DNA of 64,000 nucleotides from an uncultured Candidatus Saccharibacteria bacterium (GTDB lineage: Bacteria; Patescibacteriota; Minisyncoccia; Portnoybacterales; UBA2143), in contig CAZKWY010000001.1 in NCBI GenBank assembly GCA_964556655.1, positions 7,528 through 71,527 on the forward strand. The letters are read 5' to 3'. Positions 31,713-58,001 of this stretch are shown here, one piece after another; position 1 is the stretch's first letter, and every line of letters starts with the position of its first letter. A model generated the notes under the pieces. That model had not been told where the DNA came from. It did no database searches and worked only from the letters and a program-made list of their open reading frames with translations. The position numbers and the translations under genes are program-made.

Positions 31713-31714
31713 TT

Positions 31715-33526: not shown

Positions 33527-33528
33527 CC

Positions 33529-35251: not shown

Positions 35252-35257
35252 TAATAT

Positions 35258-40702: not shown

Positions 40703-41425
40703 TCAAGCCTCTGCCTCTGTTCGAACCTTAGTTAAGCGATGTTGAATAATGCCAAAAACAGTAATCACAGACCAATAAAGAGGCAGAGCGGCGGGAAGAT
40801 TTAAAGCAATAAAAAAAGTAAGCAAAGGCATAAAATAAGTCATTTGGCTGCTTAGGATAGAAGAAACATCAATGCCGCCTACCTTGCCTTTCTGGGCCGA
40901 AGATCCTTTTTTGGGCATTACCATTTTAGAATGAAAAAACTGCAAAATACCAGCAAGAAAAGCGAAGATGATGCTTTTTTGTGAAAGATCAACTAGATTT
41001 AAAAACATAACATTGAAAGAAGCAGGCTCCTGAACAAAATTATAAAGCAAATCAAAATTATGCGCGTCTAAACCGGTAAAAAAAACTCGATACAAAGCAA
41101 TTAAAATCGGCAGCTGAATTAAAATAGGCAGGCATCCAGCCATTGGATTGATACGATGCTTTTGGTATAAGGACATTAAGGCGCGCGCCTGCTCTTCTTT
41201 GTTGGGATGCTTTTTCTGAATTTCCTTAATTTTTGGCTGAAGCTGGCTAATTTCTTTCTGCGAACGAACTGCTTTTTTAGAAAAAGGATAAAGAATCAAA
41301 CGAATAATAGAAGTAAGAACAATAATGGCAATGCCCAAATCGGGAATAATATTATAGATAAAAACAAGAGCATTAAAGAGGGGACGATAAAGAGTTTCGT
41401 TAAAAATAGTAATAAAAATTTCCAT
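40703..41425 (-). CDS. yidC: Membrane protein insertase YidC/Oxa1
   Basis: 240 aa. YRPLFNALVFIY...LTSIIRLILYPF, MAGCLPILIQLPILIALY and polytopic TM segments are present. Confidence 0.85.
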   Translation of the reverse strand: MEIFITIFNETLYRPLFNALVFIYNIIPDLGIAIIVLTSIIRLILYPFSKKAVRSQKEISQLQPKIKEIQKKHPNKEEQARALMSLYQKHRINPMAGCLPILIQLPILIALYRVFFTGLDAHNFDLLYNFVQEPASFNVMFLNLVDLSQKSIIFAFLAGILQFFHSKMVMPKKGSSAQKGKVGGIDVSSILSSQMTYFMPLLTFFIALNLPAALPLYWSVITVFGIIQHRLTKVRTEAEA

Positions 41426-41429
41426 TTTT

Positions 41430-41774
41430 TTATTTTTTTATTAAACCAGCCTTTTCAAATAAGCACGTTAATTCTTCTTTAATAAGCTGATATTCTTTTT
41501 CTATAATCTTATCAGAAGGAATAACTACGATATCAAAACAACATTTAAGCTTCTCTTTTTCATCAAAGACTATTTCTTCTAGCCTTTTTTTTATTTTATT
41601 TCGCCAAACAGCTTTCTTTGATATTTTCAGGCCTACTACAAAAGCAAATCTATTAAAGCCTAAATTATTAGCTTTAGTTTTGATTTTTAAAAAATCTCCG
41701 TAATAAGAACGACCTTGATCAAATAGTTCCTTAAAATCGTTCTTTTTTTTGAGCTTGTGTTTTCGTTTAAGCAT
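41430..41774 (-). CDS. rnpA: Ribonuclease P protein component
   Basis: 114 aa and basic. FGLKISKKAVWRNKIKRRLRE-like motifs are present, and the gene sits between rpmH and yidC. Confidence 0.8.
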   Translation of the reverse strand: MLKRKHKLKKKNDFKELFDQGRSYYGDFLKIKTKANNLGFNRFAFVVGLKISKKAVWRNKIKKRLEEIVFDEKEKLKCCFDIVVIPSDKIIEKEYQLIKEELTCLFEKAGLIKK

Positions 41775-41813
41775 TTACGCGCAAAACAAAAACTCCTTCT
41801 TTTGCAATGAAGG

Positions 41814-41948
41814 CTAGACAGTTATTTTTTTTCTTTTTTTAAGTCTTCTTTTAGAAAGAACCCTTTTCCCAAATTTATCTGCCATTCTTTTTTTAAAACC
41901 ATGGGTTCTTTTCCTTTTTTTTCTCTTGGGATTGTAAGTAAAAGACAT
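41814..41948 (-). CDS. rpmH: 50S ribosomal protein L34
   Basis: Manual reverse-strand translation gives MSFTYNPKRKKRKRTHGFKKRMADKFGKRVLSKRRLKKRKKITV (44 aa), which matches the L34 consensus. It is absent from the ORF track because it is under 60 aa. Confidence 0.85.
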   Translation of the reverse strand: MSFTYNPKRKKRKRTHGFKKRMADKFGKRVLSKRRLKKRKKITV

Positions 41949-42132
41949 AACTAAAATTAATTAAAGACCTAGTTTAGGTTAGCATTTTAAAAAAACTAAG
42001 TCAAATCACTAACAACTTATCCCCAATCAATCCACAACTAAAGAAAAAACAGCATTATCTGTGGATATTTTTTAAAATATCGGGTTTGTGATAGAATAAA
42101 AGCGCTAACAAAAAAATAATTTCCCCAAGTTT
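41949..42132. promoter_or_regulatory. oriC part 1 (rpmH-dnaA intergenic) with DnaA-box-like 9-mers
   Basis: TTATCCCCA (42017-42025), AATCCACAA (42029-42037), TGTGGATAT (42060-42068, reverse complement ATATCCACA) and TGTGATAGA (42088-42096) are compared against the TTATCCACA consensus. Confidence 0.6.
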
Positions 42133-43494
42133 ATGGACTTAAAAGAACTTTGGCAGACAACTTTAACCGAAATAGAGCTGACCACATCCAAAGCCAATTA
42201 TATCACCTGGTTCAAAAACACTGACATTCATGCCAAAAAAGAAGGAACTGTTATCATCAACACTCCCAACGGGTTCACCAAAGAATGGCTGGAGAACAAA
42301 TACAACAAACTAATTTTAAAAATTCTCCGCAATCACTCTCCTGACGTTAAAGATGTCCAATTCGTTATTGGGAAATCTTCTTTTTCACCAAAAGAAAACG
42401 AATACAAGAAAGAAAAAGAAGAAAACTTCTTAAACGACCAGCAATTAGGCTTTCAAGAATTTAATCTTAATAAAGAAACCAATCTCAATCCTAAATATAA
42501 CTTTGACAACTTTATTGTAGGCTCTTTCAACGAATTAGCTCAAGCGGCCGGCCGAGCTGTGGTTAAGCATGCAGGAACTCTCTACAACCCTTTATTTGTT
42601 TACGGCGGCGTAGGATTAGGCAAAACCCACCTCTTGCAAGCTATTGGCAATGAATTAACCAAAAAACACCCGAATAAAAAAATAAAATACTTAAGCTCTG
42701 AAAAATATACCACTGAACTTGTAGATGCTATCTCTAAAAGAGGGATGGAAAGTTTTAAAGATAAATACCATAAAACAGATGTGCTTATTATTGATGATAT
42801 TCAATTTATTGCTGGCAAAGAAAAAACACAAGAAGAGTTTTTCCATACCTTTAATTCTCTTTATCAAAAAAATAAACAAATTATCATTAGCTCCGATAGG
42901 CCGCCTAACGCTATCGCCACCTTAGAAGACCGCCTAAGATCAAGATTTGAAGGAGGAATGATCGCTGATGTGAGCACTCCTGATCTAGAAACAAGATTTG
43001 CTATTTTAAAAAATAAAGCTCAAGAGAAAAAAGTTAAAATCCCTGATGAATCAATTAATTATATTGTCACCCATATCCAAAAAAGCATTAGGGATCTAGA
43101 AGGAGCGCTTAACAGGGTAGTGGCTTTTTCTCAAATTAACAATACCACTCCTACGCTTAAAAATACCGCCAAGATACTTTCTCAGATCATTAAAACACCA
43201 AAAAAAATGACCAATCACAAAAACATCATTCAAACTGTGGCAGAATTTTATGATATCGCCATCAGTGATTTAACTAGCCACTCCCGCAAAAAAGAATTAG
43301 TCAGACCTAGACAAATTACTATGCATCTCCTAAGAGAAGAGCTAAAAGGATCGTATCCTTTTATTGGAGAAAAATTGGGCGGTAGAGATCATACCACTGT
43401 TATTTATGCCTGCCAAAAAATTAATAAGGAGATAGAAGAAAACGACTCTCTTCAACAAGAAATCAATCTCATTAAAGAAAGGCTTTATAATTAA
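42133..43494 (+). CDS. dnaA: Chromosomal replication initiator DnaA
   Basis: 453 aa. AAA+ Walker A GGVGLGKTHLLQAIGN, Walker B LIIDDIQF and sensor RFEGGMIADV are present, with a C-terminal DNA-binding domain (ITMHLLREE). Confidence 0.9.
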   Translation: MDLKELWQTTLTEIELTTSKANYITWFKNTDIHAKKEGTVIINTPNGFTKEWLENKYNKLILKILRNHSPDVKDVQFVIGKSSFSPKENEYKKEKEENFLNDQQLGFQEFNLNKETNLNPKYNFDNFIVGSFNELAQAAGRAVVKHAGTLYNPLFVYGGVGLGKTHLLQAIGNELTKKHPNKKIKYLSSEKYTTELVDAISKRGMESFKDKYHKTDVLIIDDIQFIAGKEKTQEEFFHTFNSLYQKNKQIIISSDRPPNAIATLEDRLRSRFEGGMIADVSTPDLETRFAILKNKAQEKKVKIPDESINYIVTHIQKSIRDLEGALNRVVAFSQINNTTPTLKNTAKILSQIIKTPKKMTNHKNIIQTVAEFYDIAISDLTSHSRKKELVRPRQITMHLLREELKGSYPFIGEKLGGRDHTTVIYACQKINKEIEENDSLQQEINLIKERLYN

Positions 43495-43662
43495 CCTCTT
43501 ATAAGATTTTTATCAACAAGCTTTTCTATTCTTTTTGCCCAAGCTGTTAAAAAGAAAAATAACTCTAATAAACAAAAAAGAAGTTTTTCCCCATAAAAAT
43601 TATCACTAATAATATCAATAATAATTTTATATTTATATTATTAATATTATTATTAATTAATA
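43495..43662. promoter_or_regulatory. oriC part 2 (dnaA-dnaN intergenic): DnaA-box-like TTATCAACA plus an AT-rich unwinding element
   Basis: TTATCAACA lies at 43513-43521. An A+T tract of more than 90% spans 43605-43660 (AATATCAATAATAATTTTATATTTATATTATTAATATTATTATTAATTAATAA). Confidence 0.55.
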
Positions 43663-44775
43663 ATGGAAATTATTTGTCTCAAAGAAAAATTAAAAAAGGC
43701 CCTTAATATTGCGGAAAGAATTATCGGAAGAAACTTAACTTTGCCTATCTTAAATAACCTTTTATTGAATACAGAAAAGAATAAGCTAAGAATTTCTTCT
43801 ACTAACCTTGAAATAGGCATTAATTGTTGGCTTCCTGTTAAAGTTAAGGAAAAAGGAAGCATTACTGTGCCTGCTAAATTGATAGCTGGTTTTGTTAATA
43901 ATCTTCCCAATAAAAAAGTAGAGATAAAAAATAAAAACAACCAACTGCAGATAAAATGCGAAAGCTATAAATCAATTATTAACGGCTTAAGCGCCGATGA
44001 TTTTCCTATTATCCCTAAAGTTAAAAGTGATTGTGTCTTAGAAATCAAAGGCAGTAATTTAAGGGATACTCTTTCTCAGGTGGTGAGCATTGCTTCTTTT
44101 TCAGAATCAAGGCCTGAAATTTCTGGTGTTTTTATTTCCTTTAATAAAAATAATATTACCTTAGCGGCAACAGATAGCTTTAGGTTGGCGGAAAAAAATT
44201 TAGAAGCGGAGAAAAGCAACTTTTCATTCGGAGAAAACAGCTCTATTATTGTTCCTCAGAGGACAATTCAGGAATTAATAAGGATCTTAGGCGAAGAAGA
44301 TAGCGAGCTGGTTAAATTATTTTTTGCTAATAGCCAAATTTTATTTGATATGGGCAATCAGCAGATTGTTTCACGTCTTATTGAGGGTCAATACCCAGAT
44401 TATCAACAAATTATCCCCGACAAACTTGAAACAGAAGCTATTATTAATAAACAGGAGTTAATTAACAGCGTTAAATTATCCGGTTTATTCAGCGGCAAGG
44501 CAGGAAATGTCAATCTATTAGTTAATCCTAAAAAATCGGCGGTCATTGTTTCCTCAAAAGACACTGAACTAGGGCAAAACCAATCCCAAATAGAGGCTAA
44601 GATTAAAGGGAAAGAAATAGAGGCAACGTTAAATTATCAATATATATTAGAAGGATTAAGCAATATTTTTAGCGATAAAGTTGTTTTGGGGCTTAATGAT
44701 AATTCCAAGCCAGTTTTATTAAAACCAGTAGGAGATATTAGTTATAATTATATTGTTATGCCTATTAAAGTATAA
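43663..44775 (+). CDS. dnaN: DNA polymerase III beta sliding clamp
   Basis: 370 aa with the three-domain clamp pattern (LKKALNIAERIIG...LPILNNLLL). It is directly downstream of dnaA. Confidence 0.85.
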   Translation: MEIICLKEKLKKALNIAERIIGRNLTLPILNNLLLNTEKNKLRISSTNLEIGINCWLPVKVKEKGSITVPAKLIAGFVNNLPNKKVEIKNKNNQLQIKCESYKSIINGLSADDFPIIPKVKSDCVLEIKGSNLRDTLSQVVSIASFSESRPEISGVFISFNKNNITLAATDSFRLAEKNLEAEKSNFSFGENSSIIVPQRTIQELIRILGEEDSELVKLFFANSQILFDMGNQQIVSRLIEGQYPDYQQIIPDKLETEAIINKQELINSVKLSGLFSGKAGNVNLLVNPKKSAVIVSSKDTELGQNQSQIEAKIKGKEIEATLNYQYILEGLSNIFSDKVVLGLNDNSKPVLLKPVGDISYNYIVMPIKV

Positions 44776-48714: not shown

Positions 48715-50211
48715 TTATCCTTTAGCGATAAAGTGAGGAAAAAATATTTTTTTTAGTTTGAGCAGACGGATCGGTCTCAAATCAAATGATTGATAAACAG
48801 CCTCGGCGACGCTTTTGGCCCATTCGTTAAGAGATTGATAATTATCTTGGGCTAGAGTTCTGTTTAAGGAGAGAATGCGGCAGAGTCTTCTGTTGGGGCT
48901 GAAATGAGATTTCTTAAAAGGGACGCCATCAGAAATAAGGAATTCTTCTTCTTTTTCGAGGTGTTTTAAATGGTATCCCGGGCGCAAGTAAGATAGTTTT
49001 CCTTGTTTAAGGCGATAGATTCCTGCCTTGGTTTGTTTATGGTTTCTTGCCCAGTGGCCGGTAAGATTATGCGGGAAGAGCTGGCTTCCTCTTTTGGCTT
49101 GTCTTATCAGGCGATTAATCTCTTGGCAGTTGATGCGGTAGGGATGATTAAGGAATTCCAGCGCGTGGAATCCTATTAGAGGAGGTTCGTTATTAATAGT
49201 TTGGCACATTGTTAAAGCAGGGAAGGACCCTAAAAGGCGCGGATTGCATTCAATTAAAAAAAGTTTTTCTGTTTTTTGGTCTAAAATAAAATCTAATCCA
49301 AAAATGCCTTGATATCCCCGCTGATGGAAATAAAGGCCGATTTTTTCTACCATTTCGTAAGCTTGATGAAGAATTTTTTCAGAAAAGGAAGAGCTTGTCC
49401 AGTCATGGCCACAGAAAAGGCCGCTTCCTTTTTCTGGATTGTAGAGCTGGGGAATATCTAGAATTTGCAATTGGGGATTAGTGGAGAGAATCCCTTGCCT
49501 GGTTACACAGCCAGTAATGCTGGGAGAAGGGCCGTGGATAAATTGAGCTACAATGGCTTCAGTAGGCGGACGGATTATTTTCGCTTCTTCCTTGTTCCAT
49601 TTTTCTTCTAGTTTAGCAATGGCCTTCTGAAAATCTTCTTTATTCTTAATAAAAAAAGTTCCTTTTCCGCCCCCCTTGGCGGGATGTTGAATAACGAAAG
49701 GAAGGCCGTATTTATTAACAAGATGGCCGTAATGGAGGCGACGGGGCGTATCTATTTTTCCCGGCGGAAGATTAAGCTTTAGCTCTTGGGCGATTTTTCT
49801 GAAATTAACTTTGTCTTCAAATAGTTTTTTGCCAAAATTAGTAGGGTTGCTCATTAAAAGCCAATTATTTTCTTGGCATACTTTTTCCATTTTTTCAGAC
49901 GATTTATAAACAGTAATCGCCGGCCGATCGAATTGGTTTAAGTATTTTTTAGTTTTGGGGTGATCTAAGATAGTAGTGGCGTTGCGCGGTGCTTGAATAT
50001 GCTTGGTGCCCATGCCTTTTTCTAGAGAAAGAGTAGGGACATCTTTTTCGATTAAAGCGGTATCTAAACTATAGCGCAAGGCAAGAAGACGGTAATTAGA
50101 AGTGATTTCTTCTAGTCCTAGCCGATCAAAAGCATAAGCCCCCGCGCCGAAGAGGGGATTTTTGATTTCTTTAAAGGCTTGCTTGAGGGAGGAAAGGTCT
50201 TTAACTTCCAT
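48715..50211 (-). CDS. ATP-grasp domain protein (carboxylate-amine/peptide ligase superfamily)
   Basis: 498 aa. PFVIQHPAKGGGKGTFFIKNKEDF and GLDFILDQKTEKLFLIECNPRLLGS fit the ATP-grasp core and catalytic loop. Confidence 0.6.
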   Translation of the reverse strand: MEVKDLSSLKQAFKEIKNPLFGAGAYAFDRLGLEEITSNYRLLALRYSLDTALIEKDVPTLSLEKGMGTKHIQAPRNATTILDHPKTKKYLNQFDRPAITVYKSSEKMEKVCQENNWLLMSNPTNFGKKLFEDKVNFRKIAQELKLNLPPGKIDTPRRLHYGHLVNKYGLPFVIQHPAKGGGKGTFFIKNKEDFQKAIAKLEEKWNKEEAKIIRPPTEAIVAQFIHGPSPSITGCVTRQGILSTNPQLQILDIPQLYNPEKGSGLFCGHDWTSSSFSEKILHQAYEMVEKIGLYFHQRGYQGIFGLDFILDQKTEKLFLIECNPRLLGSFPALTMCQTINNEPPLIGFHALEFLNHPYRINCQEINRLIRQAKRGSQLFPHNLTGHWARNHKQTKAGIYRLKQGKLSYLRPGYHLKHLEKEEEFLISDGVPFKKSHFSPNRRLCRILSLNRTLAQDNYQSLNEWAKSVAEAVYQSFDLRPIRLLKLKKIFFPHFIAKG

Positions 50212-50216
50212 AAGGG

Positions 50217-51548
50217 CTAAGTTCGTTTAATTTTTTTGCCCATAAAGACATTTTTGGCTGGATCTACTAAAAATCTTTTTAAGTCTCTCCGACCGATAAT
50301 AATATCATATTTCATTTCTTTTCTGTCGGCAAGAAAAACTTCTGCGCTGACAATTCTTTTGTCTAAAACAAAGGAAGCTTGGATGAGGGGTCTCTCTTGA
50401 GCCCCTAGGGCGCCGCGGACTTTTTTGTAGCCGATAATTTTTTCATCAAGGCCTAATTTTTCCGCTAGACTTTTGCAGACAGTTGTATGATAAGCGCCAG
50501 TATCTATTTTGGCTATTGCGCTATGCTTGTTTTTGTCTTTGTCGATTATCTCGACTGGTTCGTTAATGCCAATGACTTTGCGTCCGGAAATTTCTTCCAG
50601 TTCCTCTTCTACTTCTCCGCCAAAGAGATCTCGGGCGATCTGAACTCCTTTAGAAACATTTTTAATCTTTAGCCCCTTTACTCTTTGGAGCTTTTCTTTA
50701 AGAGAGGAGAGATTGGCGATTTGAATAGAGAGTCCCGGCCGGGCATTAAGCTCTAAAATAACAGGGCCTTTTTCTCTATCAATAGCGATATCAACGCCCA
50801 AGAAGCCAATGCGGCTGGTCTCTTGGGCGTTGATAGCCATTCTCAAAACTTCTTTCCACTCGGGAATATGGATGCCGCTAAGGAGCAGGCGGCTTTGGGG
50901 CAAATATTCAATAATTTTGTCTTTTTGAATAGCAGTGGTAGTAACTCCGCTGCCCATATCGATGCCTACGCCAATGCCTCCCAAGTGAAGATTGGCTTTA
51001 CCGCCAGATTCTTTAGTGGGCAGGCGCAGTTCGGCCATGACTGGAATAGAGTTGTAAACGATGATTCTAATATCAGGAATGCCGCGGTAAACATAGGGCT
51101 TGAAGAGCTTAAGCAGTTTGATGCGCTCTTCAAAAAAAGCGGTGTCAGGTAGATTGGAAAGAGAATAATTACCTTCAATAATGTTATAGATATGGTTCTG
51201 GAGATCTTTAACGTCAATCAACTTTTTATCAGCTTTAATCCAAGAATAGGGAAATTTCTTTTTGCGGCCGTAAACAATAATGATGCCCTCGCCTGCTAGC
51301 CCTCGATTAGGCTTGAGGGCGAAAGTGGAAGGAAGATTGCGCCAGTCAAGGTTTTTTATCTGGCTTGGCCTCTCAACCACAGAAAAAGTTTGCAGAACAG
51401 GCAAGCCTGCTCGACTAAGGACTTTTTTGGCCAGAAGCTTGTTGTCAGCAATACGAACAGCCCTCATCTTATTTGAGGGCCGGAGGTAGTTAAGATTTCG
51501 CGCGTTGATTCCCAGGACGTATTGAGATTTCTTAAAAAAATCTAGCAT
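50217..51548 (-). CDS. RimK-like ATP-grasp ligase fused to a C-terminal retropepsin-like (DTGA) aspartic peptidase domain
   Basis: 443 aa. The N-terminal region has FALKPNRGLAGEGIIIV and GVDIAIDREKGPVILELNARPGLS. The C-terminal ~120 aa carry KIDTGAYHT (the D-T-G active-site motif) with a PF05618-like pattern. Confidence 0.6.
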   Translation of the reverse strand: MLDFFKKSQYVLGINARNLNYLRPSNKMRAVRIADNKLLAKKVLSRAGLPVLQTFSVVERPSQIKNLDWRNLPSTFALKPNRGLAGEGIIIVYGRKKKFPYSWIKADKKLIDVKDLQNHIYNIIEGNYSLSNLPDTAFFEERIKLLKLFKPYVYRGIPDIRIIVYNSIPVMAELRLPTKESGGKANLHLGGIGVGIDMGSGVTTTAIQKDKIIEYLPQSRLLLSGIHIPEWKEVLRMAINAQETSRIGFLGVDIAIDREKGPVILELNARPGLSIQIANLSSLKEKLQRVKGLKIKNVSKGVQIARDLFGGEVEEELEEISGRKVIGINEPVEIIDKDKNKHSAIAKIDTGAYHTTVCKSLAEKLGLDEKIIGYKKVRGALGAQERPLIQASFVLDKRIVSAEVFLADRKEMKYDIIIGRRDLKRFLVDPAKNVFMGKKIKRT

Positions 51549-51561
51549 TTAACGGATTAAG

Positions 51562-52224
51562 TTATTTTTTTTCAGGCAATTCCACTTCTTTAATAACAGT
51601 CTTGAAGCGAAAATATTCAGAAAGGCGCAAGCCGGTCCATTTACTTAGGATGAAATTAATTAAAAGAGCTCCGACAATAGTCCATAAGGGAAAGTTAAGG
51701 GCTTGGTTTTTTGCCCATGGGCAAACGATCGCGCCGTAGCAAACCAAGGAGAGGAAAAGAGTTTCAGCAGTCAGAAGAACAGCGCCTTTAGGGCCTCTTT
51801 CAATTTGGGCAGCGACAAATTTTTCCACCAAGGTAATCATAATTAAAATAGCGAAAATAGAGCTATAAGGAGGCCCGCTTTGGCCTAAGAGAGGAGCGAT
51901 CAAAAGAAGCGCTAGAATAGCCAATGTAGTAAAAGTTAGGATAATGGCCATGCGAGGGAGGTAAAGCATTCTGATTTTTTTTAGCGCTAATCTAGCTAGA
52001 CTACCAGCAAGAAAAATAGTAACAAAAAAAGCTAGGCCGTATTTTAGGCCGATAGACCAAAAAGCGAAGGCAAGAATAAGGGGGGTATAAATGCCGAATC
52101 CTTTGATGCCAATAACCTGGCGGGCAAAAGCAACAATAGTAGCCGCGACAGGCAGGAGGAGCAAGAAAACGATTGTTTCTTGAGGGACTCCTTGGTTGAT
52201 AATATATTGGGTTAATGGGGACAT
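51562..52224 (-). CDS. Polytopic membrane protein (6-7 TM), candidate partner of the ATP-grasp/peptidase pair
   Basis: 220 aa and almost entirely hydrophobic helices. Its start overlaps the ruvC stop by 13 nt. Confidence 0.45.
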   Translation of the reverse strand: MSPLTQYIINQGVPQETIVFLLLLPVAATIVAFARQVIGIKGFGIYTPLILAFAFWSIGLKYGLAFFVTIFLAGSLARLALKKIRMLYLPRMAIILTFTTLAILALLLIAPLLGQSGPPYSSIFAILIMITLVEKFVAAQIERGPKGAVLLTAETLFLSLVCYGAIVCPWAKNQALNFPLWTIVGALLINFILSKWTGLRLSEYFRFKTVIKEVELPEKK

Positions 52225-52706
52225 TTGAATTGGTAATTATTTATTGAATGAGCGCAACAAATAGCAGCCGCAAGAGCGTCAGCGGCATCGTCTGGCTTAG
52301 GAATTTCTTTAAGATCAAGAATAATTTTAACCATCTGCTGAATTTGTTTTTTATCTGCTCGGCCGTAACCGGTAACTGCTTGTTTAATTTGAAGCGGAGA
52401 ATATTCTTCAATAGTTAATTTAGCTCGACAGACTCTGGCAAGAACGACTCCTCGCGCTTGGCTGACTTTCACCGCTGTTTTAAGATTTTTAAAGAAAAAA
52501 ATATCTTCTATCGCCGCTTTTTCAGGTCGATATTTTTTTATAACGCTTTTTAGCTGCTGGTCTATAATTTGAAGGCGTTGAGCAGTGGCAAGATGGTTTT
52601 TGGTGATAATACATCCATAATCAATCAATTTTATTTTATGGGACTCTTTGGAGATAAGGCCGTAGCCAGTAAGGGCAGTCCCTGGATCAATGCCAAGGAT
52701 AATCAT
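52212..52706 (-). CDS. ruvC: Holliday junction resolvase RuvC
   Basis: 164 aa. MIILGIDPGTALTGYG and the catalytic acidic residues are in place. Confidence 0.85.
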   Translation of the reverse strand: MIILGIDPGTALTGYGLISKESHKIKLIDYGCIITKNHLATAQRLQIIDQQLKSVIKKYRPEKAAIEDIFFFKNLKTAVKVSQARGVVLARVCRAKLTIEEYSPLQIKQAVTGYGRADKKQIQQMVKIILDLKEIPKPDDAADALAAAICCAHSINNYQFKCPH

Positions 52707-52736
52707 AAAAATATTTTTTAAAAAGCTTCTACGGGA

Positions 52737-53276
52737 TTATTTAAGACTGGAATATATTTCCTGAACATCGTCATTTTCGTCAAGCGCTTCGAAGATTTTT
52801 TCTAGCTGGTTATTGGTTTTTTCGTCGCTTATTCCCATTGGATATTTGGCAAGCCATTCGTTGCCTTTTTTATCAAACATATATTTAACGCTTCCGGCTT
52901 CTGCTAATTTGCCGTCAAATTTATTGAGGATTTGCTTGATTTCTGATAGAGTGCGGTTTTTGTTATCAGTAATTCCTTCAATGATTAAAGCAATCCCGCC
53001 AGGCCCGTAAGCTTCGTAAGTAAATTCTTCAATGCTTTCGCTCCCTGTCTGCCCCGCCCCTTTTTTAATAGCCCGTTCAATATTTTCTTTGGGCATATTG
53101 AATTGCTGGGCTTTTTCGATGGCAGCGCGGAGACGCGGATTAGTTTCAGGGTCGCCGCCCTTTTCGCGGGCGGCAATAGTAATAAGGCGGGATATTTTGC
53201 TGAAAACCTTACCCCGCTTAGCGTCAGTAGAGCCCTTTTTGTGTCTAATGGAATGCCAGTGGCTATGACCAGACAT
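52737..53276 (-). CDS. YebC/PmpR-family transcriptional regulator (short form)
   Basis: 179 aa. MSGHSHWHSIRHKKGSTDAKRGKVFSKISRLITIAAREKGGDPETNPRLRAAIEKA is the YebC N-terminal signature. Confidence 0.8.
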   Translation of the reverse strand: MSGHSHWHSIRHKKGSTDAKRGKVFSKISRLITIAAREKGGDPETNPRLRAAIEKAQQFNMPKENIERAIKKGAGQTGSESIEEFTYEAYGPGGIALIIEGITDNKNRTLSEIKQILNKFDGKLAEAGSVKYMFDKKGNEWLAKYPMGISDEKTNNQLEKIFEALDENDDVQEIYSSLK

Positions 53277-53317: not shown

Positions 53318-54913
53318 TTAGTTCTTAAAAATTTTTTGCGGATGGGTTTTTCGCCATTTTCTCCATTTGATAGCCAGCCATGCCATTGCCAAGCCGGCTC
53401 CGGAAGCTGATAGCGCTAGTGGGAGGAGATTTTTCTTGTTGGCAGTATTTTGGTTAAGGCTGGCAAAATGAAGAGATAGCGAGGCAGCAGAATCTTTCCC
53501 TGTTAAACTTGCCATAGAAGTAGAGCTTGTGGATGTTTTTTCTTCCCCCTTGTCTTCTTGGTTTTTGGCTAAAGAGAGATTACCTTGAGGAAAGGATGGT
53601 GTTTCTTTGCTCTTCTTTACAGAAAAACGGCGGTTCTCTTCTATAAGGGCGAGCGGTTGGTGGCTGGTAATAATGTTTTTTGATCCTGGCGTAGGCTGGT
53701 TGGTCCAATGATAATCTCTTCCATCAAAAGACAAAGAAGATCCTGCGGCGCTTTGGCGGTAGTTAATTTCGCAGGCCAAAGAGTTATTGGGATAAAAAAG
53801 TCTTATTTGATCTTGCTCATTATTAAAGGAAAGCTTGGTTGTCTCTTTTTTCAAAACTAAAAATTGCTGGGGGCCGAGAAAGGTGTTCTCGGGGAAGACA
53901 AAAGGGCTGCTTCCTTCTTCTCTGTCATCAATTGTCCAGCCAGAAAGGTTGGCTATGTTTTCGCTTTGGTTAAAAAGCTCCAGCCATTCGCGGTCATCGC
54001 TTCCTTTGGGATTAGGCATCGCTTCATTAATAATAATGGAATCTTGATAAACATTAATTGAAATGATGTCGGTATCAGAAAGGATGCCGTCAGAGGCAAA
54101 GAGACTAGCGAGATATTGGCCGGGATAATGGTAGATATGGTTTACCCGCTCTCCTTCTTGACTGGCCCCATCGCCAAAACTCCAAAAAAAATTCAATAGT
54201 TCGTTTTCGGGATCGTAAGAATTACTGGCGTCAAAGGAAATATTTTGTCCTACCAAAGCAATGAGGTCGGGTCCGGCTTGCGCTTGGGGAGGGCGATTGA
54301 TTGAAGTATTTTTTTCTTCGGACGAAAAAATAGGCGGATTTTCCGGTTCAGCTTCTTTTTGTTTTAATTGGTTTGGATTTTCTCGTTTTTTTTGCTGGCC
54401 AGCGCTGTTTTCTTCTTTGGGCGTACCGCCGGAAATAGCGCTTGTTTGCCATTGTCCGTCCGATGATTTCTCCATTGTTTGCTTGGTTTCATTGTCCCCA
54501 TTCAGCCAGCCGTTAGAACAATCAACAACATCAATGATCTCGTTTTCTCTGTCGTAGAGTTCTAATTTTTCTCCGCTATTGCCAAGGGCGCCCGTATAAA
54601 TTTGGTCGGCGAAAAGATGGGGAAGCGTTTCTTCGCTAGTTCTTTCTAATAAAAAATAGCCGTGAGCGGCTATTGTGTTGGATAAACTTATTCGCGGGGA
54701 GCCGTCCCGCGCTTTGAGGGTCCATCCCTCTAAGTTGATTTCCTCTGCCGTATTGTTTTTAAGCTCTATCCATTCATGGCGGGGGCTTTTTTCTGTTCCC
54801 ATCCAGGCAATCTCATAAAAAATAATTTCTTTTTGTTCTCCCGCGGCAAGGCAAGGCGTTATTAATACAGCCAATAAGGCGGCTGCTCGAAAACCTGTTT
54901 TGAAGTGAGGCAT
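53318..54913 (-). CDS. Secreted, C-terminally anchored protein with two lamin-tail-domain (LTD) modules
   Basis: 531 aa with a signal peptide. The LTD motifs are IIFYEIAWMGTEKSPRHEWIELKNN...GWTL and IIINEAMPNPKGSDDREWLELFNQ...GWTI. The C-terminal TM segment is LLPLALSASGAGLAMAWLAIKWRKWRK. Confidence 0.55.
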   Translation of the reverse strand: MPHFKTGFRAAALLAVLITPCLAAGEQKEIIFYEIAWMGTEKSPRHEWIELKNNTAEEINLEGWTLKARDGSPRISLSNTIAAHGYFLLERTSEETLPHLFADQIYTGALGNSGEKLELYDRENEIIDVVDCSNGWLNGDNETKQTMEKSSDGQWQTSAISGGTPKEENSAGQQKKRENPNQLKQKEAEPENPPIFSSEEKNTSINRPPQAQAGPDLIALVGQNISFDASNSYDPENELLNFFWSFGDGASQEGERVNHIYHYPGQYLASLFASDGILSDTDIISINVYQDSIIINEAMPNPKGSDDREWLELFNQSENIANLSGWTIDDREEGSSPFVFPENTFLGPQQFLVLKKETTKLSFNNEQDQIRLFYPNNSLACEINYRQSAAGSSLSFDGRDYHWTNQPTPGSKNIITSHQPLALIEENRRFSVKKSKETPSFPQGNLSLAKNQEDKGEEKTSTSSTSMASLTGKDSAASLSLHFASLNQNTANKKNLLPLALSASGAGLAMAWLAIKWRKWRKTHPQKIFKN

Positions 54914-55994: not shown

Positions 55995-56318
55995 AATGGA
56001 GAAATAAAACTCCATTATTTTTAATCTTTGACAAACTGCAGGCAATAGGGCTTTTTATTTTATGAGACAGCCCGATGGGATTTCCTCTTAGTTTTCGGAT
56101 ATCCTGGCGCCTTCCACTTACTTGCTAAGAGGCATGATGATAAAACATCAAACGGTGAAAACCGCTTTTCTGTTGGCAAGTAAGTGGGAGGACAAGCTGG
56201 GTTATTCCTCGGAGCAATCTTTCTTTCTGTCCTCAGGCAGAGAGTCTTTGCCTGCAGCTTGGCAAAGATTAATTCATACGTCCCTCTTTAATATTTAAAG
56301 AGGGGTTATTTTTTCAGC
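55995..56318 (+). ncRNA. Candidate structured RNA (~300 nt) in the ruvB-pilB2 intergenic region
   Basis: A plus-strand promoter-like TTGACA-17-TATTAT lies at 55962-55990. An 18-bp stem CCUUCCACUUACUUGC/GCAAGUAAGUGGGAGG has a U-G pair that is valid only on the plus strand, and there are nested small hairpins. An intrinsic terminator CCCTCTTTAA-TATT-TAAAGAGGG followed by TTATTTTTT lies at 56282-56314. Confidence 0.3.
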
Positions 56319-58001
56319 GGCTATTTGATAAGAGCCAACCTCTCTTTCTATTTCTTCTAAGCTGGTGATGCCTTCGCTAGCCTTAAGAAGGGCGTCTTGA
56401 ATCATGAGGATCATTCCTTCTCGACGGGCCGTCCCTTGGATTTGGGAGGCAGAGGCTTTATCAATGATTAACTGTCCAATTTTGTGGCTTACTGCTAAAA
56501 ACTCAAAAACGCCAACTCTTCCTTGGTAGCCAAGGCCGTGGCAAGAAGAACAGCCTTGCGGTTGATAGAATTGTCTAGAAGGAGGGATTTTTATGCCGGC
56601 TGAAGAGGGTATGCAAGAAATAACTTTTTCAATAGCCTCCAGGCCTTTTGGCGAAGGCTGGTGTTTCTTTTTGCACTCAGGGCAGAGCTTTCTGACAAGT
56701 CTTTGGGCGATAATAAGGGTAAGCGCTGAAGCTAAAGAATCAGGCCTCGCTCCCATGCCTGTTAAACGAGGGATGGCGCCAGCCGCTTCATTAGTGTGAA
56801 GGGTGGAAAAAACAATATGGCCGGTCAGAGAAAACTGAATGGCGATGTCGGCGCTTTCTTGGTCTCTAATTTCTCCTACCATAAGAATATCCGGGTCCTG
56901 TCTGACAATAGCTCTTAGGGATTGGGCAAAAGTATGGCCGCGACGCTGGCTGATTTGGGTTTGAGTAATGCCTTCCAGTTGATATTCAATAGGATTTTCT
57001 ACAGTGATAATTTTGTTTCCTGGCTGGTTGACGTAATTTAGAAAAGAATAGAGGGTAGTTGTTTTCCCGGAGCCTGTAGGGCCGGTAGAAAGAATCATTC
57101 CATTGGGTTGGCCAATTTGCTTTTCTACCAAGGGGAGAAGCTCTTTTTTAATGCCAAGGTCGCGCAAAGAGGGTTTTACTTGTCCTATTCCCAAAAGACG
57201 CATGACAATTGTTTCTCCGTGGTTACTGGGCAAAAGAGAGACTCTTACATCTATTTCTTGCTTGATTCTGCTTGATGATTTGATGTGAATAGAAAAACGT
57301 CCGTCTTGGCTGATGTCACGGACGTTTAAAAGCATATCGGAAAGCGTTTTAATTCTGGAAAGAATAAAAAGATAATCTTTATTAGGCATATCGGCCGCTT
57401 TTTGAAGGATCCCATCAACGCGATAGCGTAATCTTGTCTTGTTTTTTTCCGGCTCTAAATGAATATCCGAAGCTTTCATCTTGAGGGCGCCTGCGATAAT
57501 AGCCGAAAGAAGTTTTGTCGTAGAAAGATGGCGGATAGTTTTTTCTAATTCTTGGATAGTAGCCAGAGATTTTTCAAGCTGGGACAATTCTTCTTTGGGG
57601 ATATTAAAAACGCCGCGGAGGGGCGCTTTTTTAGATAGAGAAGCGCTAGACTGGTAAGCAGGCCATCTTTTTTTAAGGCCGCTTAAGGAAACGACAAAAA
57701 TTTGGCACTGGAAGCCTTTGGCTTGAAGATGTTCAATAATTTTTTGGGCTTTTTTATTTTGGGGATCTGCGGCAGCAATTATTATTTTGGGGCCGCTTTT
57801 ATCAATAACAAGAACTTTTGCTTGTTTTGCTTGCTCTTCAGGAATAGTGGCCATGTCCTCCGCGTCTATTGGGGCAAGAGACAAATCAAGATAGGGCAAA
57901 TCTAATTTTTGGGCTAGCTGTTTGGCCCTGGTCTCTTCTTCTTGTTTTTTGATTTGAGCCAGTTTTTCCTCTAGTTGTTTTTTGCTCTTGAGCTCGGACA
58001 T
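56295..58001 (-). CDS. Second GspE/PilB-family secretion ATPase with a tetracysteine zinc motif
   Basis: 568 aa. It has an N-terminal T2SSE_N-like domain, Walker A GPTGSGKTTTLYSFL, Walker B in PDILMVGEIRD, and CPECKK...CSSCHG cysteines typical of PilB rather than PilT. Confidence 0.8.
   Translation of the reverse strand: MSELKSKKQLEEKLAQIKKQEEETRAKQLAQKLDLPYLDLSLAPIDAEDMATIPEEQAKQAKVLVIDKSGPKIIIAAADPQNKKAQKIIEHLQAKGFQCQIFVVSLSGLKKRWPAYQSSASLSKKAPLRGVFNIPKEELSQLEKSLATIQELEKTIRHLSTTKLLSAIIAGALKMKASDIHLEPEKNKTRLRYRVDGILQKAADMPNKDYLFILSRIKTLSDMLLNVRDISQDGRFSIHIKSSSRIKQEIDVRVSLLPSNHGETIVMRLLGIGQVKPSLRDLGIKKELLPLVEKQIGQPNGMILSTGPTGSGKTTTLYSFLNYVNQPGNKIITVENPIEYQLEGITQTQISQRRGHTFAQSLRAIVRQDPDILMVGEIRDQESADIAIQFSLTGHIVFSTLHTNEAAGAIPRLTGMGARPDSLASALTLIIAQRLVRKLCPECKKKHQPSPKGLEAIEKVISCIPSSAGIKIPPSRQFYQPQGCSSCHGLGYQGRVGVFEFLAVSHKIGQLIIDKASASQIQGTARREGMILMIQDALLKASEGITSLEEIEREVGSYQIAAEKITPL

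What the first reader, a model, noticed from the sequence alone, without database searches (positions are those of the whole stretch)
48715..52224. Tandem ATP-grasp ligases, one fused to a retropepsin-like DTG peptidase, next to a 6-7 TM membrane protein: a candidate peptide-ligation or modification system
50217-51548 encodes a RimK-like ATP-grasp (alpha-L-glutamate-ligase-like motifs) fused to a C-terminal domain with KIDTGAYHT, the aspartic-peptidase D-T-G signature of the PF05618-type domain that partners RimK-like ligases. 48715-50211 is a second, larger ATP-grasp (ECNPRLLGS catalytic-loop motif). 51562-52224 is an almost wholly hydrophobic 220-aa protein. Established comparative-genomics work links RimK-like ligase, a retropepsin-like peptidase and a 7TM protein as predicted systems that add and trim amino-acid tails on a protein or cell-envelope target. 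A fused ligase-peptidase plus an additional ATP-grasp is an unusual configuration whose substrate is unknown.
Basis: partly seen in the sequence, partly recalled or inferred. Interest (0 to 1): 0.7.

Follow-up and report, generated by a model that had tools for sequence, protein, structure and literature searches.

The report
Fused peptide ligase–protease membrane system
This operon from an ultra-small (Patescibacteria/CPR) bacterium encodes a membrane protein, an amino-acid ligase fused to an HIV-protease-like peptidase, and a second ligase; it is a compact, fused variant of the RloABC envelope-stress system recently described in Pseudomonas, it is conserved in hundreds of such bacteria, and its product is still unknown.

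Summary
Three tightly packed minus-strand genes encode:
- a 220-aa 7TM_transglut protein (Pfam E=6.5e-27);
- a 443-aa ATPgrasp_ST / alpha-L-glutamate-ligase-like domain fused to a C-terminal retropepsin-like domain with an intact K-x-DTGA motif, whose fold matches retroviral and Ddi1 proteases and RloA;
- a 498-aa second ATP-grasp ligase (AG2).

1. The kind is now experimentally known. It corresponds to Pseudomonas RloA (peptidase), RloB (membrane protein) and RloC (ATP-grasp). Here RloC and RloA are fused and cytoplasmic, and RloB lacks its transglutaminase domain.
2. The fusion is not rare. It occurs in at least 468 GTDB species. The 7TM gene sits immediately upstream in 79 of 80 loci examined, and the fusion is as conserved as RuvC.

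AG2 is a lineage-specific accessory (30 of 80 loci). Other lineages carry different extra ATP-grasps or a MATCAP carboxypeptidase instead. Some proteins fuse ligase, peptidase and AG2, or ligase, peptidase and MATCAP, in one chain, which ties the parts together.

The arginines that bind polyglutamate in RloA are conserved. They co-vary with DTGA and with an invariant acidic linker.

Most likely function: membrane-docked synthesis and trimming of an acidic peptide. Substrate and product are unknown. This is a new variant of a known kind, of moderate interest.

The parts
51562..52224 (-). RloB-like 7TM membrane protein (220 aa), 7TM_transglut module only, with no transglutaminase or other extracytoplasmic domain. 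Predicted 7 TM, N-terminus out and C-terminus in. The conserved residues cluster on the cytoplasmic face.
   Evidence: - Pfam PF14402, E=6.5e-27.
- NCBIfam RloB NF052267 matches only model positions 311-508 of 508: 69 bits against a cut-off of 900.
- Hydropathy and positive-inside analysis.
- Present immediately upstream of the fusion gene in 79 of 80 loci, median gap 17 nt.
- Conserved R35, R78, R85, LYLPR91, E134, K135, F136 and the C-tail motif W196-x-G-L-R-x-x-E-Y-x-R-F207.
50217..51548 (-). Ligase-peptidase fusion protein (443 aa): an RloC-like ATP-grasp, an acidic linker, and a retropepsin-like (RloA/RimB-like) domain. Cytoplasmic.
   Evidence: - Family hits.
- 120 top cluster representatives, mostly about 420-460 aa (five are shorter, 370-404 and 423-428 aa), 64-76% identical (one is the 100% self-hit), 111 of them carrying PF05618 together with PF14397.
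- 468 GTDB species.
- No TM segment or signal peptide.
50676..51500 (-). ATP-grasp domain (residues 17-291) of the ATPgrasp_ST / alpha-L-glutamate-ligase-like (RloC) type.
   Evidence: - PF14397: 214.7 bits.
- TIGR02291: 256.8 bits over model positions 10-293 of 317, against 44.6 bits for rimK_fam.
- Invariant K79, D253, E266, N268 in alignment A1.
- Foldseek hits to ArgX/LysX, Ddl and GshB.
50583..50624 (-). Conserved acidic linker FGGEVEEELEEISG (residues 309-322).
   Evidence: - Translation confirmed.
- The motif LFGGE[IV]EEE[LV]E[ED][IL]SG[RK]K is kept with only occasional single-residue substitutions across the 80 loci, down to 50% overall identity.
- It co-varies with an intact DTGA and the two substrate arginines across 100 representatives.
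50235..50576 (-). Retropepsin-like aspartic peptidase domain (residues 325-438). Catalytic D349-T-G-A352 lies at 50493-50504. The residues equivalent to RloA's polyglutamate-binding residues are K347, R386 and R409.
   Evidence: - PF05618 at 40.3 bits, above the cut-off of 27.
- Fold matches 2jys, 7d66, 2i1a, 2pma, 9g58, 9g59 and 5c9b.
- Residue equivalences come from alignments to RloA chains 9g58 and 9g59 and from the residue roles given in PMC12239564.
- D349, G351, A352, K347 and R409 are invariant, and R386 nearly so.
48715..50211 (-). AG2: a second ATP-grasp ligase (498 aa) of the three-domain biotin-carboxylase / PurK / L-amino-acid-ligase structural class. A Patescibacteria-specific family with unknown substrate.
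   Evidence: - Pfam CPSase_L_D2 and ATP-grasp_3 above cut-off.
- PRK06524 at 143 bits, far below the cut-off of 684.
- AF2 model with pLDDT 90.8.
- 344 homologues, and every source name given is from Patescibacteria.
- Directly downstream of the fusion in 30 of 80 loci.
- Fused to the ligase-peptidase in the 926-aa protein P0262: 35% identity over 486 aa, E=4e-82.
52212..53276 (-). Upstream yebC and ruvC, probably co-transcribed with the system. This is context, not part of the mechanism.
   Evidence: - Pfam RuvC and TACO1/YebC.
- The ruvC stop overlaps the 7TM start by 13 nt.
- A sigma-70-like site matching 11 of 12 positions at 53312-53283(-), upstream of yebC.
- The order YebC-RuvC-7TM-fusion holds in 75-78 of 80 loci, but not in Woesebacteria.

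Best explanation
This is the Patescibacteria (CPR) form of the RloABC-type system, compressed into two core genes plus one accessory ligase.

Shown:
- The 7TM protein, the ligase-peptidase fusion and AG2 form a conserved gene module.
- Their domains are found fused to one another in other organisms.
- Both ligases and the peptidase are cytoplasmic.
- The peptidase domain has the retropepsin fold, an intact DTGA motif, and the basic residues that bind polyglutamate in RloA.

Inferred mechanism:
1. The RloC-like ATP-grasp domain docks on the arginine-rich cytoplasmic face and C-terminal tail of the 7TM protein.
2. There it uses ATP to add acidic residues, most likely alpha-linked glutamate, stepwise to an acceptor, making an acidic peptide chain.
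3. The fused retropepsin-like domain must dimerise to form its active site. It cuts such acidic chains, either limiting their length or releasing them, as RimB does for RimK.
4. AG2 adds a different residue, as a primer, a cap or a branch. Other lineages use RimK-type or YheCD-type ligases for this role, and a MATCAP carboxypeptidase for trimming.
5. The 7TM protein passes the product to, or presents it at, the cell envelope.

The conserved acidic linker is probably a tethered pseudo-substrate or regulatory element of the peptidase, less likely a self-cleavage site.

The acceptor and the final product are not known.
For: Family assignments:
- ATPgrasp_ST, PF05618 and 7TM_transglut all score above their Pfam thresholds.
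- The best NCBIfam hits are the RloC-type TIGR02291, RloA/RimB and RloB models.

Fold:
- The C-terminal domain matches retroviral, Ddi1, RloA and APRc proteases.

Known biology:
- In Pseudomonas aeruginosa, loss of the RloA peptidases is rescued by deleting rloB or rloC, and RloA cleaves runs of 8 or more Glu.
- RimB cleaves runs of 5-6 or more Glu and stimulates poly-alpha-Glu synthesis by RimK.

Residue equivalence:
- RloA K46, R114 and R137 correspond to K347, R386 and R409 (same 23-residue spacing for the two arginines). These are invariant or nearly so.

Gene linkage:
- The 7TM gene is directly upstream of the fusion in 79 of 80 loci, median gap 17 nt.
- The same module occurs in Woesebacteria in a different neighbourhood.

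Domain fusions (Rosetta-stone evidence that these domains work together):
- ATPgrasp_ST + retropepsin + AG2-type ligase (P0262).
- ATPgrasp_ST + retropepsin + MATCAP (P0249 and many others).
- ATPgrasp_ST + retropepsin + YdjC (P0241).
- Transglutaminase + 7TM + ATPgrasp_ST (P0375), which places the 7TM C-terminus on the ATP side of the membrane.

Accessory ligases:
- 91 further ATP-grasp ORFs lie just downstream in 55 of 80 loci.

Co-variation:
- Among 100 representatives with the C-terminal domain, the 37 that keep D[TS]GA also keep the two arginines (0.75-0.97). The 29 of them shorter than 640 aa have an acidic linker (median 5 acidic, 0 basic); the 8 of 640 aa or more have a median of 3.5 acidic and 2 basic.
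- The 63 that lost the motif lost the arginines (0.07-0.33 kept) and much of the linker acidity.

Selection:
- The fusion's median identity across loci is 58%, equal to RuvC (57) and YebC (59) and above PBP1A (48).
Against: - No enzyme of the RloC/ATPgrasp_ST family has been characterised biochemically. Glutamate as the substrate is inferred only from the partner peptidase and from RimK.
- In Pseudomonas the peptidase is secreted. Here it is fused to a cytoplasmic ligase, so the 'export, then degrade' logic suggested by the Pseudomonas genetics cannot be transferred directly.
- The linker has at most three consecutive Glu, too few for cleavage by RimB or RloA as characterised.
- All three proteins score below the NCBIfam equivalog cut-offs.
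- The ATP-grasp half of the AF2 model is of low confidence.
- The accessory ligase set differs between lineages, so the product may differ too.
- No transport function has been shown for any 7TM_transglut protein.
Confidence: 0.6

Rival explanations
1. Reversible tail editing of a protein. The ligases add amino acids to the C-terminus (or a side chain) of a specific cellular protein, and the peptidases trim them back. This would resemble RimK/RimB on ribosomal protein S6, or TTL/TTLL and MATCAP on tubulin. The 7TM protein would only localise or regulate the enzymes.
For: - RimK/RimB and the RimBK hybrid do exactly this on S6.
- MATCAP, a tubulin C-terminal carboxypeptidase family, is fused to or adjacent to the ligase-peptidase in many related loci.
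- The ligase domain has weak TTL-family similarity (stronger in P0335).
- Both making and breaking activities sit in one polypeptide, as expected for a length-control cycle.
Against: - No candidate acceptor with an acidic C-terminus is encoded near the system in the window or in 80 loci.
- The C-tails of the 7TM protein and of the fusion itself are basic.
- The ligase is of the RloC type, not the RimK type.
- The invariant pairing with a membrane protein is not explained by a soluble target.
- S6 of these organisms could not be examined here.
Confidence: 0.2
2. Amino-acid or peptide decoration of an envelope glycopolymer or lipid-linked precursor. The ATP-grasp enzymes would amidate carboxyl groups of, or add peptides to, a sugar polymer or peptidoglycan precursor held by the 7TM protein.
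For: - The Pfam family is named 'sugar-transfer associated ATP-grasp'.
- Related loci include a glycosyltransferase, YdjC-like proteins, a GNAT and GalT, and one protein fuses YdjC to the ligase-peptidase.
- A class A PBP lies downstream in 60 of 80 loci.
- Many invariant arginines lie on the cytoplasmic face of the 7TM protein and could bind phosphates.
- The Pseudomonas rlo phenotypes concern cell shape, beta-lactam sensitivity and osmotic lysis.
Against: - The window's operon has no sugar-handling gene.
- The PBP linkage is absent in Woesebacteria and may be inherited synteny near oriC.
- The conserved polyglutamate-binding residues of the peptidase point to a peptide chain rather than a single amidation.
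- This rival overlaps with the best explanation if the acceptor of the acidic chain is a glycopolymer.
Confidence: 0.15
3. AG2 is functionally unrelated to the other two genes. It would be a metabolic ATP-grasp enzyme, such as a carboxylase or purine-pathway enzyme, that merely sits next to them.
For: - Its best sequence and structure matches include biotin carboxylases and PurK.
- It is absent from 50 of 80 loci that have the core pair.
Against: - When present, it lies a median of 27.5 nt downstream of the fusion gene.
- An AG2-type domain is fused to the C-terminus of the ligase-peptidase in P0262 (35% identity over 486 aa, E=4e-82), next to a 7TM gene.
- Loci lacking AG2 carry other ATP-grasp ligases in the same position.
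- Identity to any carboxylase is only 10-14%, and peptide ligases score equally well.
Confidence: 0.05

Closest known systems
RloABC of Pseudomonas aeruginosa / P. fluorescens (Lormand et al. 2025, mBio; PMC12239564)
   Same: - The same three protein families in one operon: a retropepsin-like PF05618 peptidase, a 7TM_transglut membrane protein, and an ATPgrasp_ST / TIGR02291 ligase.
- The peptidase keeps DTGA and the basic residues that bind polyglutamate.
- The ligase is cytoplasmic.
   Different: - The peptidase is fused to the C-terminus of the ligase and therefore cytoplasmic. It has no signal peptide and shorter flaps.
- The RloB-like protein lacks the periplasmic inactive transglutaminase domain.
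- An extra ATP-grasp (AG2) is present.
- The host is a monoderm-like CPR bacterium.
- All three proteins score below the NCBIfam equivalog cut-offs.
- The system looks vertically inherited and housekeeping-like, rather than restricted to Gammaproteobacteria.
RimK-RimB, and the RimBK hybrid of Desulfotalea psychrophila (Little et al. 2025, JBC; PMC11957791)
   Same: - A cytoplasmic ATP-grasp glutamate ligase working with, or fused to, a cytoplasmic retropepsin-like peptidase specific for polyglutamate.
- The peptidase modulates the ligase's output.
   Different: - RimBK has the peptidase at the N-terminus of a canonical RimK. Here the order is reversed and the ligase is of the RloC type (rimK_fam only 44.6 bits).
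- Rim systems have no membrane partner.
- Rim systems act on ribosomal protein S6, which is not indicated here.
Tubulin tail code: TTL/TTLL ligases and the MATCAP carboxypeptidase
   Same: - ATP-grasp ligases that add Glu or Tyr to acidic C-terminal tails, with dedicated peptidases that remove them.
- MATCAP-family domains are fused to or adjacent to this ligase-peptidase in related CPR loci.
   Different: - The window itself has no MATCAP gene.
- There is no tubulin-like acceptor.
- Similarity of the ligase to TTL is marginal (E=0.0023).
Comparative-genomics prediction of ATP-grasp / 7TM-transglutaminase / aspartyl-peptidase systems (Iyer, Abhiman, Burroughs, Aravind 2009, Mol Biosyst 5:1636). 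Cited from my own knowledge and from the reference list seen; the paper itself is not held.
   Same: The Pfam families used here (ATPgrasp_ST, 7TM_transglut) derive from that work, which predicted a joint role in peptide modification at the cell surface.
   Different: As far as I could check, that work did not describe the CPR-wide fused form or its accessory fusions.
Amino-group carrier ligases LysX/ArgX and other peptide-forming ATP-grasps (PylC, BesA, PGM1, L-amino-acid ligases)
   Same: - These are the closest solved folds: ArgX/LysX for the fusion's ligase domain, and PylC, BesA, PGM1 and 8ynd for AG2.
- All form amide bonds through an acyl-phosphate intermediate.
   Different: - Identity is only 10-18%.
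- There is no LysW-like carrier, and no biosynthetic context for lysine, arginine or antibiotic synthesis.

Membership tests
Pfam PF14397 ATPgrasp_ST | Profile score above the gathering threshold, over the full domain | tested here: met
   214.7 bits against 31.4; residues 17-291 cover model positions 2-277 of 278.
NCBIfam TIGR02291 alpha-L-glutamate ligase-like protein (RloC type) | Score above the curated cut-off (314.2 bits) | tested here: not met
   256.8 bits over model positions 10-293 of 317. This is the best-scoring family by far but falls below the cut-off.
RimK proper (TIGR00768 / PRK10446) | Score above the curated cut-off | tested here: not met
   44.6 bits against 143.4, and 16.3 against 331.
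Pfam PF05618 (RimB-like / 'Zn_protease') retropepsin-like peptidases | Profile score above threshold, a D-T-G-A active-site motif, and the retropepsin fold | tested here: met
   - 40.3 bits against 27, though the profile match is partial (positions 63-134 of 138).
- DTGA is present and invariant in relatives.
- Foldseek hits to retroviral, Ddi1, RloA and APRc proteases, E from 2e-4 to 1e-3.
RloA / RloA2 / RloA3 / RimB equivalogs (NF052261-NF052264) | Score above the cut-off (200-280 bits) | tested here: not met
   Best score is 32.9 bits, to RloA3.
RloA (secreted Rlo peptidases) | N-terminal signal peptide and periplasmic location | tested here: not met
   The domain is at the C-terminus of an ATP-dependent ligase. 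The 443-aa protein has no hydrophobic N-terminus or TM segment (maximum KD19 of 1.14).
Retropepsins in general | Homodimer, with one catalytic Asp contributed by each subunit | not testable with these tools
   Only monomer prediction was available. The protein has one DTGA, so dimerisation would be required.
Pfam PF14402 7TM_transglut | Profile score above the gathering threshold | tested here: met
   95 bits against 25; residues 15-210 cover model positions 53-247 of 248.
RloB (NF052267, inactive transglutaminase fused to 7TM) | Full-length match including the periplasmic inactive transglutaminase domain (cut-off 900 bits) | tested here: not met
   69.3 bits, covering only model positions 311-508 of 508. 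The protein is 220 aa and has no room for the domain.
RloABC-type system | Peptidase, 7TM protein and ATP-grasp encoded together and conserved as a unit | tested here: met
   The genes are adjacent, with 13-nt and 5-nt gaps. The 7TM-plus-fusion pair is present in 79 of 80 loci and in a different context in Woesebacteria. A TGase + 7TM + ATP-grasp fusion exists.
RloABC-type system | Genetic interaction: peptidase loss is toxic unless rloB or rloC is lost. Peptidase cleaves polyglutamate. | not testable with these tools
   This needs genetics or biochemistry. Only conservation of the polyglutamate-binding residues could be shown.
RimBK hybrid | RimB domain at the N-terminus of a canonical RimK | tested here: not met
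   Here the peptidase is C-terminal and the ligase is of the ATPgrasp_ST type.
ATP-grasp superfamily (AG2, 48715-50211) | ATP-grasp fold, with a glycine-rich loop and Mg-binding E-x-N | tested here: met
   - Pfam CPSase_L_D2 at 35.4 against 19.8, and ATP-grasp_3 at 33.5 against 23.2.
- Invariant G180-G-G-K-G184, D307, E321 and N323.
- AF2 pLDDT of 90.8.
PRK06524 'biotin carboxylase' (NF005096) / biotin carboxylases | Score above the curated cut-off (684 bits) | tested here: not met
   143.1 bits. PDB biotin carboxylases score E of 0.007 or worse by sequence and share 9-13% identity by structure.

The most novel reading that the evidence does not exclude
The fused enzyme is a membrane-docked, self-regulating synthase of an acidic (poly-alpha-glutamate-like) peptide.
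- Its invariant Glu-rich linker would serve as a built-in pseudo-substrate, primer or self-processing site for the retropepsin domain.
- Its product would be handed by the 7TM protein to the envelope as a CPR-wide anionic wall component, functionally analogous to teichoic acids or to the mycobacterial poly-L-Glx layer.
- This would be a housekeeping pathway of ultra-small bacteria that has not been described.
Probability: 0.15. Interest if true: 0.85.

Novelty: new variant of a known kind. Interest (0 to 1): 0.55.

Why it matters
The molecular function of RloABC is an open question. It matters for antibiotic tolerance, biofilm formation and cell shape in Pseudomonas, yet the product of RloC and the role of RloB are unknown.

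The CPR version offers natural experiments that constrain the answer:
- The peptidase can work on the cytoplasmic side, physically tied to the ligase.
- The transglutaminase domain of RloB is dispensable, so the 7TM module is the conserved core.
- The ligase, endopeptidase, MATCAP carboxypeptidase, a second ligase and the 7TM protein occur as single polypeptides in various combinations. This argues that they form one machine.

The system is also one of the few multi-enzyme modules kept at housekeeping-level conservation in the very small genomes of Patescibacteria. That suggests an important and unstudied feature of their envelope or physiology.

The compact two-gene core would be a convenient target for biochemical reconstitution.

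Tried and rejected
1. A small substrate protein with an acidic C-terminus. I scanned the window and 9 kb on each side of the fusion gene (contig permitting) in 80 loci for ORFs of 25-120 aa with an acidic tail. Only four unrelated chance ORFs turned up, so this was rejected.
2. The 7TM protein's own C-tail as the acceptor. The tail is conserved but basic and amphipathic (GKWTGLRLSEYFRFREVIK...KK), so this was rejected.
3. An apparent 689-aa fusion of the 7TM protein with the ligase-peptidase in L043. It is an artefact of a run of N between the genes.
5. The linker as a plain RimB/RloA-type cleavage site. It has at most three contiguous Glu, whereas 5-6 or more (RimB) or 8 or more (RloA) are needed. 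This is unlikely as such and is kept only as a low-probability option.
6. The promoter and terminator scan. It shows only consensus matches, with no clear terminator after AG2. The operon boundaries are not settled.
7. RuvC/YebC linkage as functional. The module occurs without them in Woesebacteria, so I treat it as inherited synteny.
8. The AFDB50 fold library was unavailable, and the Iyer et al. 2009 paper is not held.
9. Literature searches for this system in CPR/Patescibacteria found nothing specific.

Full report

Yes. Three minus-strand ORFs lie at exactly the reported coordinates: 51562-52224 (220 aa), 50217-51548 (443 aa) and 48715-50211 (498 aa). They are separated by 13 and 5 nt. The first ORF's start overlaps the stop of ruvC by 13 nt.

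Pfam assigns:
- the 443-aa protein to ATPgrasp_ST (PF14397, E=1.9e-63, residues 17-291) plus PF05618, the RimB-like 'Zn_protease' family (40.3 bits, cut-off 27);
- the 220-aa protein to 7TM_transglut (PF14402, E=6.5e-27);
- the 498-aa protein (AG2) to generic ATP-grasp families.

NCBIfam gives TIGR02291 'alpha-L-glutamate ligase-like protein' as by far the best family for the ligase domain: 256.8 bits, against 44.6 for rimK_fam. It also gives weak hits to the RloA3, RloA and RimB peptidase models. Its RloB hit covers only the C-terminal 7TM half of that model.

The quoted motifs are there. DTG is at 50496-50504, and ECNPRLLGS is in AG2.

**2. The peptidase domain**

The AlphaFold model of the fusion is mediocre overall (mean pLDDT 63.6) but good for residues 330-420 (pLDDT 72-85).

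Foldseek against the PDB returns foamy-virus protease, Ddi1 RVP domains, EIAV and FIV proteases, Legionella Lpg0085, Rickettsia APRc, and the RloA and RloA2 crystal structures for this domain. It returns ArgX/LysX, Ddl and GshB for the N-terminal part.

Sequence alignments to RloA chains 9g58 and 9g59 place the window's residues as follows:
- K347-x-D349-T-G-A on RloA's K46-x-D48-T-G-A;
- R386 (ERPLI) on R114;
- R409 (ADRKE) on R137, with the same 23-residue spacing between the two arginines.

In the RloA paper these are the residues that coordinate polyglutamate. R114A and R137A abolish function. In an alignment of 27 relatives, D349, G351, A352, K347 and R409 are invariant and R386 nearly so.

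So the domain is very likely an active retropepsin-like endopeptidase with a preference for acidic chains. It has one DTGA, so it must dimerise. Dimerisation was not testable here.

**3. What is known about this kind of system**

The triad of ligase, retropepsin-like peptidase and 7TM protein was predicted by comparative genomics (Iyer et al. 2009). That paper is not held here; I cite it from knowledge and from a reference list.

It is now experimentally anchored as RloABC in Pseudomonas aeruginosa:
- RloA proteases are secreted dimeric retropepsins that cleave runs of 8 or more Glu.
- A triple rloA mutant dies in low-salt medium and has defects in shape, biofilm formation and beta-lactam tolerance.
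- Deleting rloB (inactive transglutaminase plus 7TM) or rloC (cytoplasmic ATP-grasp) rescues these defects.
- The product of RloC and the role of RloB remain unknown.

The related cytoplasmic pair RimK/RimB glutamylates and trims ribosomal protein S6. RimB strongly stimulates poly-alpha-glutamate synthesis by RimK. A RimB-RimK hybrid is known, with the peptidase at the N-terminus.

**4. How common is the window's arrangement?**

It is very common within one group of bacteria.

- The fusion protein has 4,791 database hits at E of 1e-5 or better. The top 120 cluster representatives are mostly about 420-460 aa (five are shorter: 370, 404, two of 423, and 427-428 aa). Apart from the 100% self-hit they are 64-76% identical. 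111 of the 120 carry PF05618 together with PF14397 in the precomputed annotation. Where named, they come from Patescibacteria, Portnoybacteria or Parcubacteria.
- A scan of one genome per GTDB species found 468 species with a relative.
- In the 80 loci retrieved, the 7TM gene is directly upstream of the fusion gene in 79, at a median gap of 17 nt. The wider order RuvB - LTD/PKD surface protein - YebC - RuvC - 7TM - fusion - ... - PBP1A is largely conserved.
- The fusion's median identity to the window protein (58%) equals that of RuvC (57%) and YebC (59%) and exceeds that of PBP1A (48%). It is therefore under housekeeping-level constraint in these small genomes.
- A 35%-identical version occurs in Woesebacteria, another CPR class. 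Its operon is 7TM - fusion - MATCAP - RimK-type ligase, set between uvrA and uvrC rather than next to ruvC. The module, not the ruvC neighbourhood, is therefore the conserved unit.

**5. The second ATP-grasp (AG2)**

AG2 has 344 homologues. All those listed are about 500 aa, and every source name given is from Patescibacteria.

It follows the fusion gene in 30 of the 80 loci, at a median gap of 27.5 nt.

It belongs with the system:
- A 926-aa protein (P0262) carries ATPgrasp_ST, the retropepsin domain and an AG2-type domain in one chain (35% identity to AG2 over 486 aa, E=4e-82). It sits directly after a 7TM_transglut gene.
- Loci without AG2 carry other ATP-grasp ligases in the same place. 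These are RimK-like, YheCD-like or Ddl-like: 91 ORFs in 55 loci. They are often accompanied by a MATCAP-family carboxypeptidase, a YdjC-like protein, a GNAT or a glycosyltransferase.

**6. Domain fusions in the wider family**

A full HMMER search of 1.84 billion representatives found 1,891 relatives. Of the best 150, 50 are stand-alone ligases of about 312 aa (the RloC form) and 100 have the C-terminal retropepsin-like domain.

Of the 100 with the C-terminal domain, 50 are 640 aa or longer (most about 780-815 aa). All four of these tested against Pfam add a MATCAP carboxypeptidase domain; two other long ones add YdjC or an AG2-type ligase. One protein fuses transglutaminase, 7TM and ATPgrasp_ST. 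That last fusion places the C-terminus of the 7TM module on the ATP (cytoplasmic) side. This agrees with my hydropathy and positive-inside estimate of 7 TM segments with the N-terminus out and the C-terminus in.

The extracytoplasmic module of the 7TM protein varies. It is absent here, consists of PKD domains in L084, and is a transglutaminase domain in RloB and P0375.

**7. The acidic linker**

Between the ligase and the peptidase lies FGGEVEEELEEISG (50583-50624). This motif is kept with only occasional single-residue substitutions across the 80 loci, including those only 50% identical overall.

Across the 100 representatives with the C-terminal domain:
- The 37 that keep D[TS]GA also keep the two arginines (0.75-0.97). 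The 29 of them shorter than 640 aa have an acidic linker (median 5 acidic, 0 basic residues). The 8 of 640 aa or more have a less acidic linker (median 3.5 acidic, 2 basic).
- The 63 that have lost the catalytic motif have mostly lost the arginines (0.07-0.33 kept) and much of the linker's acidity (median 2-3 acidic, 2 basic).
- 42 of those 63 are the long forms, mostly fused to MATCAP.

The Woesebacteria protein is an example of the second group: NTG instead of DTG, and a non-acidic linker.

This co-variation links the linker to peptidase function. The linker has at most three consecutive Glu, fewer than RimB (5-6) or RloA (8) need. I therefore favour a tethered pseudo-substrate or regulatory role over simple self-cleavage. 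This is inference only.

**8. The 7TM protein**

Its conserved residues lie mostly on the predicted cytoplasmic face:
- R35, Q36, G39
- R78
- R85 and LYLPR91
- E134, K135, F136, Q140
- the post-TM7 motif W196-x-G-L-R200-x-x-E-Y-x-R-F207

This fits a docking or substrate-handling surface facing the ligase. Whether the protein transports anything is unknown.

**9. Substrate**

No conserved small ORF with an acidic C-terminus lies near the system. The C-tails of the 7TM protein and of the fusion are basic. S6 of this organism is not in the window. The acceptor therefore remains unknown.

**10. Most likely mechanism and rivals**

Best explanation (confidence 0.6 for the overall picture, much lower for the details): this is a membrane-docked machine for making and trimming an acidic peptide.
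- The RloC-like domain polymerises acidic residues, probably alpha-Glu.
- The fused dimeric retropepsin domain limits or releases the chains.
- AG2 contributes a different residue.
- The 7TM protein couples the process to the envelope.

Rivals:
- Reversible tail editing of a protein, RimK-like or tubulin-code-like (0.2).
- Peptide or amino-acid decoration of a glycopolymer or peptidoglycan precursor (0.15). This overlaps with the best explanation if the acceptor of the acidic chain is a glycopolymer.
- AG2 being unrelated to the other two genes (0.05).

**11. Novelty and interest**

The kind is known: RloABC and RimBK, together with the 2009 prediction. The window shows a distinct variant:
- domain order reversed relative to RimBK;
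- an RloC-type ligase;
- a cytoplasmic peptidase;
- RloB reduced to its 7TM core;
- an extra Patescibacteria-specific ligase;
- an invariant acidic linker.

This variant is widespread and strongly conserved in CPR bacteria. I found no paper describing it, and public annotations are generic. I rate it a new variant of a known kind, with interest 0.55. It is not a surprise in kind. It is a useful, compact and evolutionarily informative version of a system whose biochemistry is an open question.

Noticed in passing
window 40703-44775: The window spans the probable replication origin region. It holds rpmH (41814-41948, -), rnpA and yidC-like ORFs (40703-41774, -), dnaA (42133-43494, +) and dnaN (43663-44775, +). 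The GC skew changes sign near 44 kb. The ligase system lies about 4-8 kb from dnaN. dnaN and dnaA also appear downstream of PBP1A in many related loci (clusters 4 and 5).
   Followed up: partly
window 53318-54913 (-): A 531-aa surface-type protein with a signal-like N-terminus, two LTD (lamin tail) repeats, a PKD domain and a C-terminal TM anchor. It is kept between ruvB and yebC in 51 of 80 related loci. In one distant locus (L084), PKD domains are fused to the 7TM protein itself. Whether this protein is connected to the ligase system is unknown.
   Followed up: partly
window 48715-48760 (C-terminus of AG2): The extreme C-terminus of AG2, F-x-P-x-F-[IL]-A-K-G, is conserved. K497 and G498 are invariant in 31 sequences. 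The fused AG2-type domain of P0262 lacks these last ~16 residues. This is an unusually conserved free C-terminus with no explanation.
   Followed up: no
related proteins P0254, P0264, P0273-P0277 and others: In most of the ~790-aa proteins that fuse ATP-grasp, retropepsin domain and MATCAP, the retropepsin-like domain has lost DTGA (for example IDTSRR, IDPGQE, INLNQA). It looks like an inactive spacer or dimerisation module, as if the carboxypeptidase had taken over the trimming role.
   Followed up: partly
window 52737-53276 (-): YebC here is only 179 aa. The Pfam 'second and third domain' match covers only part of the profile, whereas YebC is 238 aa in more distant CPR loci. The short form is conserved in the closest relatives.
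   Followed up: no
window 15569-21698 (+) and 56295-58001 (-): A type IV pilus-like cluster: a PilB-type ATPase (15569-17320), a PilC-type platform protein (17348-18580), then four ORFs with pilin-like hydrophobic N-termini. A second PilB-type ATPase lies at 56295-58001, just upstream of ruvB.
   Followed up: partly
window 25240-36349 (+): A run of same-strand ORFs, many with hydrophobic N-termini. It includes a TraG/VirB4-like P-loop ATPase (31715-33526; PF19044, E=1.2e-25). This may be a secretion or conjugation-like apparatus. It was not analysed further.
   Followed up: no
window 36309-40213 (-): Two Wzy_C (O-antigen ligase/polymerase-like) membrane proteins and a Wzx-like polysaccharide flippase. 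These are envelope glycopolymer genes about 10 kb from the ligase system, and are not linked to it in other loci.
   Followed up: no
window 4051-4207, 6034-6590, 13843-14004: Six tRNA genes: Lys-CTT, Arg-TCG, Pro-CGG, Ala-CGC, Gly-TCC and Pro-TGG.
   Followed up: no
L043 7272-9342: An apparent single 689-aa ORF joining the 7TM protein to the ligase-peptidase is caused by a masked run of N between the two genes. It is not a real fusion.
   Followed up: yes
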